This document shows, piece by piece, positions 55,801 to 64,000 of a DNA stretch of 64,000 nt (positions are counted from its first letter, which is position 1; the number at the start of each line of letters is the position of its first letter). Location: assembly GCF_041248615.1 (NCBI RefSeq), contig NZ_CP158426.1; one strand, written 5' to 3'. Made by a program: the position numbers. The DNA is from Escherichia coli (GTDB taxonomy: Bacteria > Pseudomonadota > Gammaproteobacteria > Enterobacterales > Enterobacteriaceae).

Positions 55801-58800
55801 ATTTATAATCCGGCGGGTTTCCGGTGCTCCTTTGACACTCTCTCCATATCCCTCAGGCCCGGCACCAACAGATACCACGTTATTTTCTCCCGACACCTGT
55901 GAGCCATGGCCCAGAGCTACAGAACTGGTAGAATCCTGCACAGATGAAAACGCACCAATTGCCGAGCTCTGACGAGAAGAAATAAGTGACGCTTCTTTTC
56001 CTGCAACAGTCCCCCATTCAGAGTCAGCAATAAGTGCATCATGCCCCAGACTCACACTTCCCGGAGAGTTCACAACACCAGAATTATTCCCCAAAAGCAC
56101 AGTCCTGTTTGAGTCTAATAAAAAAGAATCATCACCAATCAACCATACATTTCTTACTTTATCAATCGAACGGCCAGCTACTGATTCTCCAACAAGAAAG
56201 CTATTATCTTCGCCAGGTTGAATCGGTCCGATTAAAATATCCTGAGCCTGAGCCTGAGCCGAGAGCAGCAGGGCCACACTCACTGCCAGCGCGCTTTTCT
56301 TTAAAAAAGCATCACGTCTTTTAAGCATTCTGTTATTCTCCTGTATTATTACTTCACCAGCCAGAACGGTAGTGCGGAGCAAAAATACAGTGATAAGAAT
56401 CCTCTTTTATTAATTTAATAATGCCAGGAATATTATTGTGTATAATATGCGCCCTCAATTTAAGCAGCAGAAAACGACTGGCATTAAAATCATTAAATTA
56501 TAAACATATACAACTTTGTAAAGGTGGTTATAATAAACCTGATTACTTTAACGTCTGTATACCTGCACTGCTGATATCACAAAACAATAAAAATCCTGGT
56601 TAATATCTCTGATGATTGAATGAGAAATTCACGATGTCTGGTGAGAATTCTGTTCAAAACGAGGAATGCAGACGTACACGTGGCACGCACCACGTGATCC
56701 GTAGAAAAGCCTCTTGTTACGAATTTCGTAAACCGCACGTCTGTCTGGTCGTGCGGATTTTTTATCCGTCAACTTCACATGAAACCCGCCAGAGCACTGT
56801 TTCCGGATTCAGACATCAGGCATATTATTATCCACGATGTCGTGAACAAGATCACACTTTTGCAATTCCTTTATTGATCGAAAGCAGTTAATCACGGAAA
56901 TTAATTACCGGAGTGAAAGCATTTGCTATATAAACATTCCCAGAAGACATCTTCATGTTGAATATTATTCCCTTATTGACTAGCCCCTCTGACAGAATTT
57001 CAGAGGGGGTTTTTTATCAGTTTCACCATCCAACCCTGTACGCCAGAATGGTTTCACTGTCACTCAGTTCTGCTATTGCCTTTTTCATCTCCCTTTACCT
57101 TACGTTCTGCCAGAGTCTGAGCCATTTGAACAGGAGGTTATCATTGATATCGTGTTCCCGGGCAATACGGGCAACAGAGGCTCCTGGTTGCAAAACCAGT
57201 TTAACCATTTGAAGTTTAACTCATTTGAAAATGATCTGCGGGGTTCTGCGGATAATGTTTTTGCTCCATAACAGGCGTCCACCAGTTTGAAAAGGTGGGC
57301 ACCTACGTTACCAATACTGGCTTAATGGCTACATACGGCGGTCGGTTCTTACGGTAAAACGACACAACCAAACGCTTCTTATCCTGCAATGAACTGCTTT
57401 ATTACCGAGTTTAGTGACCGCACAGACACTCACTTTTAAGAAAAACAGAATGGTAAACAAACTCCATGAATTACAATAGCTCTCTGGCTGCCGCCACAAT
57501 ATCTTGCGCGGTTAACCCGTACTCTCTCTGTAAAAAGTCCTGAGTTCCAACCTGGCCATACCGCTCTTTAACCCCCACCCGACGCATGGGCACAGGACAA
57601 GTTTCTACAAGCACTTCAGCAACCGCTGAACCTAATCCATTATGAATACTATGGTTTTCACATGTTACGATCCGTCCTGTTTTTTCGGCATAATTTTTAA
57701 TTAACATCCGATCAACGGGTTTGAGCGTAAACATATCAATCACCGCTACACTTACCCCAGCCAGCTCAAGTTGACGTGCGGCCTCCAGGGCTTCCACCAC
57801 CATAATGCCATTAGCAATTAAGGTGACATCCGTACCTTCACGTAATACCTGCCCTTTGCCAATTGTAAAGGTTGTACCTGGTGCGTAAATACTCGCTGCT
57901 TGCTTCCGAATGGTACGAATCCAATAAAATCCTTCCAGTGCAACGAGTTGACGCAAGATATCGCTGAACATTACGGCATCTGTCATCTCCATCACCACCG
58001 AATGCGCCAGCCCGCGCACAATTCCCATATCTTCAAATGACATATGTGTTCCGCCATTGTGGCAAGCAGCAACACCCGCATCAGAAGCTATAACTTTGAC
58101 GTTAGCGCCCTGGTAATCAAGCGACATAAAGAGTTGATCAAAACAGCGACGACTGGCAAATGCGGTAAAGGTATGCACGAATGGCTTGCGCCCGGTTAAG
58201 GCCAGCCCTGCAGCTGTGCCGATAACATTGGCTTCCATAATGCCGCAATTAATGACGTGATCTGGATAATCCTGCGCCACGCTGTCCATTGCCATGGAAC
58301 TCATTAAATCAGCCTCAAGAGCAATGACAGAACTGACGTTTTTACTCTGTTGCGCGATAAAATCTGCATAAACTTTGCGCATTTCAATGCTGTCTTTTTG
58401 TCCTGCCGGTGCGAGATTAATCATGCATAGCCTCCAGTTGGCGAATTGTTTCGTTTAGCGTCCCCTTCATCTCTTCTGTGAGGCGTAAGTGATGAGAATT
58501 ACTGAGTTGCTCGAGACACGGCACCCCCTGCCCTTTAATGCTATCGAGAATGACCACTCTCGGTCTGGCCTCAGCTGGCAGGACAGGTTTAACTACATTC
58601 AACAAGCCCTCAATATCATCGCCCTTCACTGTCACGACATCAAAACCGAAAGCCCGGAATTTTCCTTCCAAATCAAATGGATTAATAATTTCATCCAGTT
58701 GACCATCAAGCTGCTGTTTGTTCCAGTCCACAAACACAGTGAGGTTATTCAAACGATGATGCGCGATAAACTGGAAAGCTTCCCAACATTGGCCTTCATT

Positions 58801-61800: not shown

Positions 61801-64000
61801 CGTTACGCACTCCCGAACAAGTTTCAGATAAATTGAGGGAGAAGATTGAAGCCGCAGTTAATGAATTAGGGTATATGCCCAACCTCACTGCAAGCGCACT
61901 GGCATCGGCATCTTCACACACGATCGCAATGGTCGTGCCAAACCTGGCTGAAGCGGGATGCACGGAAATGTTTGCCGGGCTGCAACATGTGCTACAACCA
62001 GCGGGGTATCAAATAATCCTGGCTGAGTCACGCCATCGTCTGGAACAAGAAGAAAAACTGCTGGAAACCCTGCTGGCTTCTAATATCGCTGCAGCAATTT
62101 TGCTTAGTGTTGAGCATAATAGTACCGTGCGTCACTTGCTCAAAAATGCCTCGATTCCTGTTATAGAAATCGGTGCCATTCGTACTGATCCGATAGATAT
62201 CAACATTGGTATTGATAATGTTGCAGCAATGTTCGAGCTGACGGATATGCTGGTACAACGTGGTTATCAGAATATCGGTTTGCTATGCGCTAACCAGGAA
62301 CAGTGGATCTTTCAGCAGCATTTACAGGGATGGTATAAAGCTATGTTACGCCATCATATGTCTCCCAACCGTGTTATTAACGCTGCTCTGCCACCTGTTT
62401 TTTCCACCGGAGCATCACAACTACCGGAATTTTTGCTCGCATGGCCGGAACTGGATGCCCTGGTATGTGTGTCAGATGAGTTAGCCTGCGGTGTTCTCTA
62501 TGAATGTCAACGAAGACGGATCAAAGTTCCAGACGAGCTCGCCGTAGTAGGATTTGGTGACAGTGACGTCAGCAAAGTTTGCCAACCATCATTAACAACA
62601 ATGGCCGTTCCTCACAGGAAAATTGGTCTGGAAGCAGGAAATGTTTTGCTGGAACGAATTAAAGAAGGTAACTGGAGCAATCAGATATTCATTGAGCCCT
62701 GTTTATGTTTACGTGAAAGCTGCTGAAGCTGGGGGACTGGTATCTTTCAGCTCACTGATTTTGTTGCTGAACCTGATATATCCTTCGGTTTTCCACAACC
62801 AGGGGAAGGGTGTCATCATAAGGCGTGATGACACCCTGAATTCCCATCCTGTATCTGCAGAAAATTTTTCGTAAATAAATTAATTTAATAACTAAAAAGA
62901 AAATACAATAAGCAAAATATCAATTACAGAATGTTCGTTTGTTTAAAGAACCTGCTGGTCCTGCCATTAATATTACCTGCTGATTGCTTCACATCCGGAT
63001 TCCTCGCACTGCGCGCGGGTTATTGTTTCGTTTTCGGCCACGGGGTCGCCAGGGCTCTGTTTGCAGGCCATGATGGCCTGACCTGTACTGTTTCTCAGGC
63101 ACTGAGATGTCCGTTTACGCCATTTGTTCCCGGATATCCTTAACCTCTGACGTTTGTTCCCTGCCCCTCTGTCTGATAACGAATACGCTCACAACGCACA
63201 GTACTGAACAATACCGACAACAACATGTCTTACATGAAATTCGCTGTAACATCCACCGGAAAACATTTTCAGATATCGGATGAGGTACTACTTCCATTGA
63301 CAGCGCGAGGTAACAAAATTGATGGTAACTCTGACCATTAACCGTAAACCGCAGGGTATTTTCAGTAAATCACCGGCAACGCCGCTGCAGAATAAAACGG
63401 ACACAGCATACAAAATGAAGGCCGGTGACCAGATACCACAGTTGAACGATAAACAGAAACCTGCTGATAAAACACCGTGGCGACATGACAAAACGCCAGA
63501 GCAAAAACCGTAAGCGCATTATTCGTCTTGTGGAACTCTGGCCTGAGTCATTCAACCGGGAAAAAAACAAAACCACTTAAAGTGGGGATACCTGACGACC
63601 TGATACAGGATATCGCCATCCGAGAACTGGCGTTTGGCGCTGGTACATTACATGCAGCAGTGGCGTCTTATGTGCAGTCTCCGCGCTATTACCGTGCGTT
63701 AATAGCAGGTGGCGCCCGTTACAACCTGAACGGTCAGCCGTGCGGGGAAGTGACACCACAGGAACAGAAAGAGGCAGAGACCCGTTTAATGATGCTGAAT
63801 GACCGACGAAAAGACAGAAAACCTCGTTGACTGCACAACAGCGCTGTTCACTGAGCTGTAATCAATGTACAGCGCTGTACCGGGCGATGGGTAATACCGG
63901 TCACAACCGGTAACCCCAGAGACAATGCAACTGTTTTTAACGCAATATACTGGCCGGATGTATCACCCCGGGCAGCCTGAAAACACCTTTCCACCCGGCA

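What the first reader, a model, noticed from the sequence alone, without database searches (positions are those of the whole stretch)
57471..62726. Ascorbate-family PTS plus split transketolase operon with divergent LacI-family regulator
EIIA, EIIB and EIIC of the ascorbate family are followed by N- and C-terminal transketolase subunits, with a LacI-type regulator opposite. This is a self-contained module for an unidentified sugar or ketose entering the pentose phosphate pathway, carried on the accessory island rather than the core.
Basis: partly seen in the sequence, partly recalled or inferred. Interest (0 to 1): 0.3.

Follow-up and report, generated by a model that had tools for sequence, protein, structure and literature searches.

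The report
Island-borne sugar-uptake plus split-transketolase operon
This is a real, intact six-gene sugar-utilisation unit (uptake system, two-piece transketolase and its own repressor) that most E. coli relatives keep at a fixed chromosomal site but E. coli carries only on a mobile island in about 2% of strains; it was already annotated and its sugar is still unknown.

Summary
Window 57471-62726 holds tktC-like, tktN-like, EIIC, EIIB and EIIA genes on the minus strand and a divergent LacI-family regulator.

The module lies on a ~51-kb selC island. K-12 lacks it: its yfcC-yfcD junction is 32 bp and empty.

It is the orthologue of the Salmonella TktC cluster (TktC subunit 86% identical, same gene order). 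About 80 Enterobacteriaceae species keep it at a fixed core site between pta/yfcC and yfcD. E. coli lost it there. 132 of 5,426 complete genomes carry one near-clonal allele on islands, and 234 more keep only an IS1-truncated stub.

No further enzyme gene travels with it. Two conserved operator palindromes overlap the operon promoter.

The PTS is not the ascorbate system (EIIC 29% identical to UlaA). The transketolase keeps all cofactor and catalytic residues. It replaces two canonical substrate-binding residues (TktA His461 to Asp, Asp469 to Asn) in 77 of 77 orthologues, a signature shared by a wide subfamily found in sugar-catabolic clusters.

Most likely mechanism: repressor-controlled uptake and phosphorylation of an unidentified ketose, then transketolase cleavage into pentose-phosphate intermediates.

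Already known as an annotated locus; modest interest.

The parts
57471..58424 (-). Transketolase C-terminal subunit (TktC-like, 317 aa): pyrimidine-binding and C-terminal domains. It carries the non-canonical D115 / H122 / N123 signature.
   Evidence: Pfam PF02779 + PF02780. The closest solved structure is the split transketolase of C. hydrogenoformans, 6YAJ, E 1e-70. Residue audit. 86% identical to the Salmonella enterica orthologue.
58417..59247 (-). Transketolase N-terminal subunit (TktN-like, 276 aa): thiamine-diphosphate and metal binding. Its start overlaps the EIIC stop by 4 nt, and its stop overlaps the tktC start by 8 nt, so translational coupling is inferred.
   Evidence: Pfam PF00456, E 1e-46. 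6YAK E 3e-64. H28, H68, H101, D146, N176 and H252 align with TktA H26, H66, H100, D155, N185 and H261. Coordinates.
59244..60632 (-). PTS EIIC permease of the L-ascorbate (SgaT/UlaA) family, 462 aa (RefSeq start; an alternative GTG start lies at 60638).
   Evidence: Pfam EIIC-GAT, E 4e-153. NCBIfam NF009549, 989 bits against a cut-off of 890. Only 29% identical to K-12 UlaA.
60655..60927 (-). PTS EIIB (90 aa). The phospho-acceptor Cys lies in the motif AICGSGLGSS.
   Evidence: Pfam PTS_IIB, E 2e-16. The Cys aligns with the UlaB active-site Cys.
61006..61449 (-). PTS EIIA (147 aa). The phospho-acceptor His lies in the motif AMPHARPEEG.
   Evidence: Pfam PTS_EIIA_2, E 3e-34. The His aligns with the UlaC motif AMPHGRPEEG.
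61527..61540 (.). Operator O1, AGATAGCGCTATCA. It is a LacI-type palindrome just downstream of the -10 hexamer of the operon promoter.
   Evidence: Found. Two such sites 34-36 bp apart are conserved in 78 of 79 orthologous loci. These two are the only matches in the 64-kb window.
61561..61574 (.). Operator O2, TGATAGCGCTATCA, a perfect 14-nt palindrome that overlaps the -35 hexamer.
   Evidence: 157 of 168 matches in 1.25 Mb of related loci fall in this intergenic region.
61547..61575 (-). Sigma-70-like promoter facing the PTS-transketolase operon (TTGATA, 17-nt spacer, AACAAT).
   Evidence: Consensus scan, 9 of 12 matches. This is a pattern match only. Its function is inferred from its position relative to the operators.
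61707..62726 (+). Divergently transcribed LacI-family repressor (339 aa). It is closest to the gluconate/idonate GntR/IdnR subgroup but falls below their cut-offs.
   Evidence: Pfam LacI HTH + Peripla_BP_1/3. NCBIfam best hits are GntR (Pseudomonas type) at 270 bits against a cut-off of 400, and IdnR at 225 against 500.
62727..62752 (+). Terminator-like hairpin and T-run directly after the regulator gene, in the island-specific flank.
   Evidence: Pattern scan. Homology to core copies ends at 62730.
57107..57282 (-). Transposase gene fragment 188 bp beyond the tktC stop. It marks the island-side boundary of the captured block.
   Evidence: RefSeq annotation of the source record. The same fragment flanks the IS1-truncated remnant in other genomes.

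Best explanation
This is a repressor-controlled, two-step entry route for an unidentified sugar, most likely a ketose.

Proposed mechanism:
1. Without inducer, the LacI-family protein binds two palindromic operators that overlap the -35 hexamer and the start region of the operon promoter. This is inferred from conserved sites.
2. With inducer, EIIA, EIIB, EIIC, TktN and TktC are made from one transcript. The last three are translationally coupled. Both points are inferred from gene overlaps.
3. The L-ascorbate-family PTS takes up the sugar and phosphorylates it through EIIA-His and EIIB-Cys, using the cell's general EI/HPr. The residues are shown; the activity is inferred.
4. The heteromeric, thiamine-diphosphate-dependent transketolase transfers the sugar's two-carbon ketol unit to an aldose phosphate. 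This yields pentose-phosphate or glycolytic intermediates, so no other dedicated enzyme is needed.

The altered substrate-pocket residues suggest the enzyme is tuned to the PTS product rather than being a spare housekeeping isozyme.

In E. coli the unit is a 5.26-kb block of Escherichia-type origin. It was lost from its ancestral yfcC-yfcD site and is now carried on selC or tRNA-Phe pathogenicity islands, mainly in poultry and human extraintestinal strains.
For: - Gene identities.
- Conserved six-gene order in about 78 of 80 species, with no other linked enzyme.
- Gene overlaps of 4 and 8 nt.
- Phospho-site Cys and His conserved.
- All ThDP, Mg and catalytic residues of transketolase conserved in 77 of 77 orthologues, with H461D and D469N invariant.
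- The same D..N signature occurs in about 55 of 150 diverse representatives. The contexts looked at (7 of these, one contig too short to tell) are mostly sugar-catabolic clusters. One has the same EIIA-EIIB-EIIC-TktN-TktC order at 42% identity. Another is an ABC transporter + xylulokinase-like kinase + TktN/C variant, which follows the same uptake, phosphorylation, transketolase logic.
- Operators conserved in 78 of 79 loci and essentially unique to this region.
- Promoter overlap.
- Salmonella orthology and core position.
- Literature: Salmonella has a third transketolase, tktC, with distinct enzymatic properties (PMC8360588). The pneumococcal tktN/tktC and adjacent asc-type PTS genes are co-induced more than 200-fold (PMC8540371). 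That unit was predicted to take up ketopentoses (PMC3302838).
- Island location and distribution.
Against: - There are no expression or phenotype data for the E. coli copy.
- The substrate is unknown. The pneumococcal mutants gave no phenotype on ribose, xylose, arabinose or xylulose (PMC3302838).
- From memory of Shaw et al. 2018 (J Biol Chem, not held in the library), purified Salmonella TktC catalyses the canonical transketolase reactions with lower Vmax. So the D/N signature does not exclude a housekeeping-type role.
- The regulator's nearest named relatives respond to sugar acids rather than neutral ketoses.
- The island copy has lost the native hairpin that follows tktC in E. whittamii.
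- The promoter is only a 9-of-12 consensus match, in a region where shuffled sequence gives about as many matches.
Confidence: 0.7

Rival explanations
1. The module is an auxiliary L-ascorbate system. The PTS is a second ascorbate transporter that feeds the core UlaG/UlaDEF pathway. The split transketolase simply adds capacity to drain the resulting xylulose-5-phosphate.
For: - The EIIC passes two NCBIfam 'PTS ascorbate IIC' cut-offs.
- In pneumococcus a ula-PTS mutant still grew partly on ascorbate, and the second asc-type PTS was suggested as the back-up (PMC3302838).
- The pneumococcal ula operon also contains a transketolase (PMC3302838).
Against: - EIIC, EIIB and EIIA are only 29%, 27% and 40% identical to UlaA, UlaB and UlaC.
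- The regulator is LacI-type with its own operators, not UlaR.
- No ulaG, ulaD, ulaE or ulaF homologue is ever linked to the module.
- The transketolase pocket differs from canonical enzymes at two substrate-contact positions.
Confidence: 0.12
2. The transketolase is a third, stress- or stationary-phase housekeeping isozyme of the pentose phosphate pathway. Its adjacency to the PTS has no pathway meaning.
For: - Salmonella tktC is described as regulated like tktB through RpoS (PMC12651746).
- It is counted as one of three transketolases (PMC8360588).
- Canonical activity is recalled from Shaw et al. 2018 (from memory, not held in the library).
Against: - EIIC, TktN and TktC have overlapping reading frames.
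- The five-gene order is conserved from Enterobacteriaceae to a lineage only 42% identical.
- PTS and transketolase genes are co-induced in pneumococcus (PMC8540371).
- A dedicated operator-repressor pair is conserved with the unit.
- Most distant D..N relatives whose contexts were looked at sit in sugar-catabolic clusters.
Confidence: 0.12
3. In E. coli the module is inert hitch-hiking cargo of the island and is on its way to loss.
For: - 234 genomes retain only an IS1-truncated 179-bp stub on the same backbone.
- One genome has an ISVsa5 insertion in the module.
- The native terminator is missing.
- The module is flanked by IS debris.
Against: - All six reading frames and both operators are intact here.
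- The 132 carriers are at least 99% identical over the module.
- All catalytic and phospho-transfer residues are preserved.
Confidence: 0.06

Closest known systems
Salmonella enterica TktC cluster (recalled as STM2340-STM2345 / STM14_2885-2886; Shaw et al. 2018, from memory)
   Same: It has the same six genes in the same order and orientation. The TktC subunit is 86% identical and has the same ASDAGV..CHNGGTH signature. The same two operators are present.
   Different: In Salmonella the cluster sits at the core site between yfcD and yfcC-pta-ackA. In E. coli that site is empty, and the block lies on a selC or tRNA-Phe island flanked by IS fragments. DNA identity is only 76%. The locus-tag numbers are from memory, not from a tool.
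E. coli K-12 UlaABC (SgaTBA) L-ascorbate PTS with UlaG/UlaDEF and UlaR
   Same: It belongs to the same PTS family (EIIC-GAT, PTS_IIB, PTS_EIIA_2), has a three-protein architecture, and has conserved Cys and His phospho-sites.
   Different: Identity is only 27-40%. The gene order is A-B-C rather than C-B-A. There is no lactonase, decarboxylase or epimerase gene. The regulator is LacI-type rather than DeoR-type. A transketolase is attached.
Split transketolase of Carboxydothermus hydrogenoformans (PDB 6YAK/6YAJ)
   Same: It has the same two-subunit architecture and is the best solved-structure match (E 3e-64 and 1e-70). All cofactor and catalytic residues are shared.
   Different: The structural reference has the canonical His and Glu-Asp at the positions where this protein has Asp115 and His122-Asn123. 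No D..N-type split transketolase was among the solved-structure hits.
Streptococcus pneumoniae SP2127-SP2131 (asc-type PTS + tktN/tktC)
   Same: An asc-type EIIB/EIIC is followed by N- and C-terminal transketolase genes. The genes are co-regulated. The substrate was predicted to be a ketopentose but was never shown (PMC3302838, PMC8540371).
   Different: It has no separate EIIA. Its regulator is a PRD-containing multidomain protein rather than LacI-type. The sequences were not compared here, so whether it carries the D..N signature is untested.
Transketolase-less LacI + EIIA/B/C paralogue of E. coli B2 strains (e.g. strain 83972)
   Same: It has a divergent LacI regulator and EIIA-EIIB-EIIC in the same order, with identical operator palindromes at the same 34-bp spacing.
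   Different: It has no transketolase genes. Identities are EIIC 63%, EIIB 42%, EIIA 48% and regulator 43%. It has a different chromosomal neighbourhood (ilvN', DeoR-rbsK-fucP, cdiBA) and is present in about 1,300 genomes rather than 132.
Apulose-4-phosphate transketolase AptAB of the D-apiose pathway (Carter et al. 2018, from memory)
   Same: It is a split transketolase dedicated to a catabolic pathway with a non-canonical donor. One UniRef entry gives an 83%-identical orthologue this name.
   Different: The name is a propagated annotation. The apiose pathway uses an ABC transporter, an isomerase or reductase, and a kinase, not a PTS.

Membership tests
PTS L-ascorbate (L-Asc, SgaT/UlaA) family | EIIC of the SgaT/UlaA type, with separate EIIB and EIIA proteins | tested here: met
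   PF03611 E 4e-153, PF02302 E 2e-16, PF00359 E 3e-34. NCBIfam NF009549 989 bits against 890, and NF006919 620 bits against 380.
PTS L-ascorbate (L-Asc, SgaT/UlaA) family | Phospho-acceptor Cys in EIIB and His in EIIA | tested here: met
   The Cys in AICGSGLGSS and the His in AMPHARPEEG align with the UlaB and UlaC sites.
Ula/Sga L-ascorbate utilisation system (substrate-level membership) | Orthology to UlaABC and linkage to ulaG/ulaDEF under UlaR | tested here: not met
   27-40% identity to UlaA, UlaB and UlaC. No ulaG, ulaD, ulaE or ulaF homologue in or next to the module in 80 loci. The regulator is LacI-type.
Transketolase (ThDP-dependent, split N/C type) | N-terminal ThDP/Mg domain on one chain, with pyrimidine-binding and C-terminal domains on a second chain | tested here: met
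   PF00456 on the 276-aa protein. PF02779 + PF02780 on the 317-aa protein. Best PDB matches are 6YAK and 6YAJ.
Transketolase (ThDP-dependent, split N/C type) | Cofactor, metal and catalytic residues (TktA H26, H66, H100, D155, N185, H261, E411, H473) | tested here: met
   All are conserved in the query and in 77 of 77 orthologues.
Transketolase (ThDP-dependent, split N/C type) | Canonical substrate-pocket residues (TktA R358, S385, H461, D469, R520) | tested here: not met
   R358, S385 and R520 are kept. H461 is Asp and D469 is Asn in the query and in 77 of 77 orthologues. This is a partial departure, shared by about 55 of 150 diverse representatives.
Transketolase (ThDP-dependent, split N/C type) | Ketol-transfer activity | not testable with these tools
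   Activity of the Salmonella orthologue is recalled from Shaw et al. 2018 (not held). Held papers say only that tktC encodes a transketolase with different enzymatic properties (PMC8360588).
LacI family repressor-operator system | N-terminal LacI HTH plus periplasmic-binding-protein-like effector domain | tested here: met
   PF00356 E 1e-19, PF13377 E 4e-28, PF00532 E 7e-20.
LacI family repressor-operator system | Palindromic operator with a central CG in its own control region | tested here: met
   TGATAGC|GCTATCA occurs twice, conserved in 78 of 79 loci at 34-36 bp spacing and nearly exclusive to this region. Binding itself is not testable here.
Salmonella-type TktC cluster (orthologue group) | The same six genes in the same order with high identity | tested here: met
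   TktC subunit 86% identical. Gene order LacI / EIIA-EIIB-EIIC-TktN-TktC. 74-97% TktN identity across 80 species.
Salmonella-type TktC cluster (orthologue group) | Chromosomal position between yfcD and yfcC/pta | tested here: not met
   In this window the block lies on a selC island. The K-12 yfcC-yfcD site is empty. Position is conserved in 64-71 of 80 other species.
Apulose-4-phosphate transketolase AptAB | Orthology to AptA/AptB and linkage to apiose isomerase or reductase and apulose kinase | not tested
   There is only a propagated UniRef name on one orthologue. No AptB sequence or paper was available. No isomerase or kinase is linked to the module.

The most novel reading that the evidence does not exclude
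The invariant Asp115 / His122 / Asn123 pocket may mark a distinct catabolic subfamily of split transketolases whose physiological donor is not xylulose-5-P, fructose-6-P or sedoheptulose-7-P.

Paired with an L-Asc-family PTS (or, in other lineages, an ABC transporter plus a xylulokinase-like kinase), it would form a minimal 'phosphorylate, then cleave' pathway for a rare ketose. Candidates are a ketopentose or heptulose with non-D-threo configuration at C3/C4, or a branched tetrulose such as apulose.

That would give Enterobacteriaceae, and island-carrying avian and human E. coli, access to a nutrient that no current metabolic model includes.
Probability: 0.3. Interest if true: 0.55.

Novelty: already known. 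Interest (0 to 1): 0.25.

Why it matters
The module is an example of a metabolic unit that is core in most Enterobacteriaceae, was lost by E. coli, and was kept or regained on pathogenicity islands of poultry and human extraintestinal strains. It may therefore contribute niche fitness.

Its substrate has remained unassigned in Salmonella, pneumococcus and E. coli despite two decades of annotation. This work supplies concrete handles for assigning it:
- a conserved repressor-operator pair
- a minimal gene set
- a diagnostic active-site signature
- a kinase-based variant that points to xylulose-like ketoses

The practical impact is modest unless the substrate proves to be a host- or diet-derived sugar relevant to colonisation.

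Tried and rejected
1. **CFT073 c3405-c3410.** I recalled a PTS cluster in PAI-metV (Lloyd et al. 2009) and suspected it was the same module. The paper is not held. Searches on the locus tag were uninformative. The CFT073-like strain 83972 has only a 67%-identical EIIC paralogue without transketolase. The equivalence is not supported.

2. **The tkt1 island of APEC O1.** It encodes a different gene, a full-length transketolase 68% identical to V. cholerae TktA (PMC12928451).

3. **AGI-3, the selC island of BEN2908.** From memory its sugar cluster is MFS + glycosidase + LacI, not this module. This was not pursued.

4. **Orthology to ula/sga.** Rejected at 27-40% identity.

5. **Search for an extra linked enzyme that would reveal the substrate.** None was found. 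The flanks are yfcD-H and yfcC-pta-ackA.

6. **tRNA at the island edge within the window.** None was found. The selC tRNA lies beyond the window end.

7. **The Shaw 2018 and Carter 2018 papers.** Neither is held. A search for apulose with transketolase found no papers.

8. **Terminator scan.** It gave no more hits than shuffled sequence.

9. **Salmonella in the genome scan.** It did not appear among the 80 loci kept, because the scan is pattern-limited. It was recovered through cluster membership instead.

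
Full report
**Observation.** ORF listing of window 54000-64000 shows five co-directional minus-strand genes and one divergent plus-strand gene, exactly at the reported coordinates.
- Pfam identifies them as Transket_pyr + Transketolase_C (317 aa), Transketolase_N (276 aa), EIIC-GAT (462-464 aa), PTS_IIB, PTS_EIIA_2, and a LacI HTH + periplasmic-binding-fold regulator.
- NCBIfam agrees. The EIIC exceeds the cut-offs of two 'PTS ascorbate IIC' models. Each transketolase half matches one half of full-length transketolase models. The regulator is nearest to, but below the cut-offs of, GntR/IdnR-type LacI repressors.
- The EIIC stop overlaps the tktN start by 4 nt, and the tktN stop overlaps the tktC start by 8 nt.

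**Where it sits.** The window is identical to E. coli NRZ14408, NZ_LT599825.1 positions 32001-96000.
- RefSeq annotation shows core genes (ilvBN, uhpABCT, adeDQ, nepI, iatC, the eilA/type III-related genes, nlpA, yicL, setC) up to about window 38200.
- After that comes a mosaic of IS fragments, toxin-antitoxin genes, a second sugar module, a YadA-like adhesin, and the module under study.
- The mosaic continues past the window end to an integrase and tRNA-Sec. No tRNA lies inside the window.
- So the module is on a roughly 51-kb selC island.
- In APEC IMT5155 the same module lies in an ireA-containing island. The genome paper places that island at tRNA-Phe. [quoted passage not shown]

**Distribution in E. 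coli.**
- The complete module occurs in 132 of 5,426 complete genomes. It is always chromosomal and always at least 99% identical.
- In an evenly spaced sample of 60 carriers, 31 came from poultry or poultry meat and 17 from humans.
- Another 234 genomes match only the last 179 bp of tktC. In the example inspected, an IS1 replaces everything from there to beyond the regulator, on the same backbone.
- K-12 has nothing comparable. Its yfcC and yfcD genes are 32 bp apart.

**Relatives elsewhere.** A scan of species-representative genomes with TktN returned 80 loci at 74-97% identity, from Escherichia, Citrobacter, Enterobacter, Klebsiella, Raoultella, Kosakonia, Cedecea, Serratia, Rahnella, Hafnia and others.
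- tblastn with all six proteins shows the same order and orientation in essentially all loci that are long enough.
- Clustering of flanking ORFs shows a fixed address. yfcD (Nudix) lies a median of 8 bp beyond the regulator in 71 loci, followed by yfcE, yfcF, yfcG, folX and yfcH. On the other side, pta (64 loci) or yfcC lies directly beyond tktC, then ackA.
- No additional catabolic enzyme recurs, so the six genes are the whole unit.
- Salmonella enterica has the identical arrangement at that site. Its TktC subunit is 86% identical.
- E. fergusonii, E. albertii, E. whittamii and Escherichia sp. MOD1-EC7003 also have the module at the core site.
- The E. coli island copy aligns to the E. whittamii copy over exactly window 57470-62730 at 93.4% identity, with no yfcC or yfcD remnant.
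- It is 90.5% identical to E. fergusonii, 84-86% to E. albertii and MOD1-EC7003, and about 76% to Salmonella and Citrobacter.
- K-12 and E. whittamii differ by 5-10% in the flanking core genes. The island allele is therefore Escherichia-type, but no exact donor was sampled.
- The module tree inside Escherichia does not follow the flanks.

**Regulation.** The 257-bp region between EIIA and the regulator contains two copies of TGATAGC|GCTATCA, at 61527-61540 and 61561-61574.
- Allowing two mismatches, 78 of 79 orthologous loci have two sites 34-36 bp apart. 157 of the 168 matches in 1.25 Mb lie in this intergenic region. The window has no other match.
- The only promoter-like site facing the operon has its -35 hexamer inside O2 and its -10 hexamer just upstream of O1.
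- This is the classic layout of a LacI-type repressor blocking its target promoter. Binding itself is inferred.

**The PTS.** EIIC, EIIB and EIIA are 29%, 27% and 40% identical to K-12 UlaA, UlaB and UlaC.
- The gene order differs, and there is no ulaG or ulaDEF homologue.
- The phospho-acceptor Cys and His align.
- The system belongs to the L-ascorbate family but is not the ascorbate system.

**The transketolase.** The closest solved structures are the two chains of the Carboxydothermus hydrogenoformans split transketolase.
- I aligned the query with E. coli TktA, that enzyme, human transketolase and 77 orthologues.
- Every cofactor, metal and catalytic residue is conserved, as are three phosphate ligands (TktA R358, S385, R520).
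- TktA His461 is Asp (TktC D115) and Asp469 is Asn (N123), preceded by His instead of Glu. This holds in all 77 orthologues and in Salmonella.
- From established transketolase literature, His461 contacts the substrate phosphate. Asp469 (yeast Asp477) reads the hydroxyl that sets D-threo stereospecificity.
- An exhaustive search of 50%-identity cluster representatives shows the signature is not local. About 55 of the best 150 have D-x7-N, and about 50 have the canonical H...(E/P)D.
- Contexts of distant D..N members are mostly catabolic:
  - an identical EIIA-EIIB-EIIC-TktN-TktC unit at 42% identity
  - an ABC transporter + kinase + TktN/C unit, where the kinase passes the xylulokinase model cut-off
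  - clusters with DeoC-type aldolases, polyol dehydrogenases, isomerases or RpiB
  - one member lies among housekeeping genes, and one contig was too short to tell

**Literature state.**
- Salmonella is said to have three transketolase genes 'with different enzymatic properties' (PMC8360588). tktC is described as RpoS-regulated like tktB (PMC12651746).
- My recollection of Shaw et al. 2018 is that purified TktC performs the canonical reactions with lower Vmax. That paper could not be read.
- In S. pneumoniae the asc-type PTS SP2129-30 and the split transketolase SP2128/SP2127 form one operon. They were predicted to handle ketopentoses, but no phenotype was obtained (PMC3302838). The four genes rise together more than 200-fold in a polyamine-transport mutant (PMC8540371).
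- No paper assigns a substrate.

**Interpretation.** The best-supported model is a LacI-repressed operon for uptake and phosphorylation of an unidentified ketose, followed by transketolase cleavage into central metabolites (confidence about 0.7 for the scheme, substrate unknown).
- Shown: gene identities, conservation of the six-gene unit, the operators, the residues, the island location, and the loss from the core site.
- Inferred: repression, single-transcript expression, PTS activity, and the transketolase acting on the PTS product.
- Rivals (a second ascorbate transporter, a mere third isozyme, or decaying cargo) are each weaker for the reasons given in their entries.

**Novelty and interest.** The locus is annotated in 132 RefSeq genomes and noted in print for IMT5155. 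It is orthologous to a Salmonella cluster whose enzyme has been studied, so it is already known.
- What this analysis adds: the exact block limits, the core-site loss in E. coli, the operator pair (shared with a transketolase-less paralogue), and the conserved pocket signature with its wide subfamily.
- These make the long-standing unknown substrate more testable, but they are not surprising to a specialist.
- Interest is scored at 0.25.

Noticed in passing
L003 7967-11284 (E. coli 83972, NZ_CP058220.1): About 1,300 E. coli genomes carry a paralogous divergent LacI + EIIA-EIIB-EIIC unit without transketolase genes. Identities to the module are EIIC 63% and regulator 43%. Its control region has the same TGATAGCGCTATC(T/A) palindromes at the same 34-bp spacing, plus a third weaker site. 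This suggests a shared operator code and possible cross-regulation in strains that carry both.
   Followed up: partly
L002 9001-9928 (E. coli 13KWH46); equivalent to window 57471-57649: 234 genomes keep only the last 179 bp of the transketolase C gene, next to an IS1 on the same island backbone. In the example inspected, a multi-resistance region (floR, tet(A), strAB, sul2) lies a few kb away.
   Followed up: partly
NZ_AP045773.1 360138-367076 (hit H1): In one carrier the module matches in two pieces spanning 6.9 kb, with an IS4-like ISVsa5 transposase annotated inside it. This is an insertion into the module.
   Followed up: no
window 50138-53373: The same island holds a second small sugar module: a MurR/RpiR regulator, a maltose/glucose-type PTS EIIC(B) and an N-acetylmannosamine-6-phosphate 2-epimerase. 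An orphan ugpB (45827-47143) and a phytase-like esterase (48638-49981) lie nearby.
   Followed up: no
window 16188-34331: The core side of the window holds a very large inverse autotransporter adhesin gene (iatC, 11 kb, about 60% GC). It is followed by a low-GC block with eilA (HilA-family regulator) and type III secretion translocon, tip and chaperone genes. This accounts for the sharp GC swings in the composition profile.
   Followed up: no
window 54573-56382: Just upstream of the module on the island lie a YadA-like trimeric autotransporter adhesin gene and an adjacent small sigma-factor-like HTH protein. The pair is also present next to the module in IMT5155.
   Followed up: no
L027 and L008 versus window 57470-62730: Within Escherichia the module's relationships do not follow the flanks. 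Escherichia sp. MOD1-EC7003 has flanks 96-97% identical to K-12, but its module is 84.5% identical to the island allele and 93% identical to E. albertii. This suggests allele exchange at the core site.
   Followed up: partly
L100 (E. fergusonii CP057104.1) 8001-11178: In E. fergusonii the module abuts pta directly, and the yfcC transporter gene present in E. coli, E. whittamii and Salmonella is missing.
   Followed up: no
P0121-P0269 (representative homologues); L091, L093, L096, L097: Split transketolase C-subunits fall into at least two large pocket types: canonical H...(E/P)D and D...xN, with the middle residue varying (H, Y, L, T, A, F, V). Other combinations occur as well (for example Y..N and Y..A). 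No D..N enzyme appeared among the solved-structure hits.
   Followed up: partly
P0022 (Pseudocitrobacter corydidari orthologue, 83% identical): UniRef names this orthologue 'Apulose-4-phosphate transketolase subunit B'. The name is probably propagated from the nearest reviewed entry. It is the only substrate-specific name attached to any member seen.
   Followed up: no
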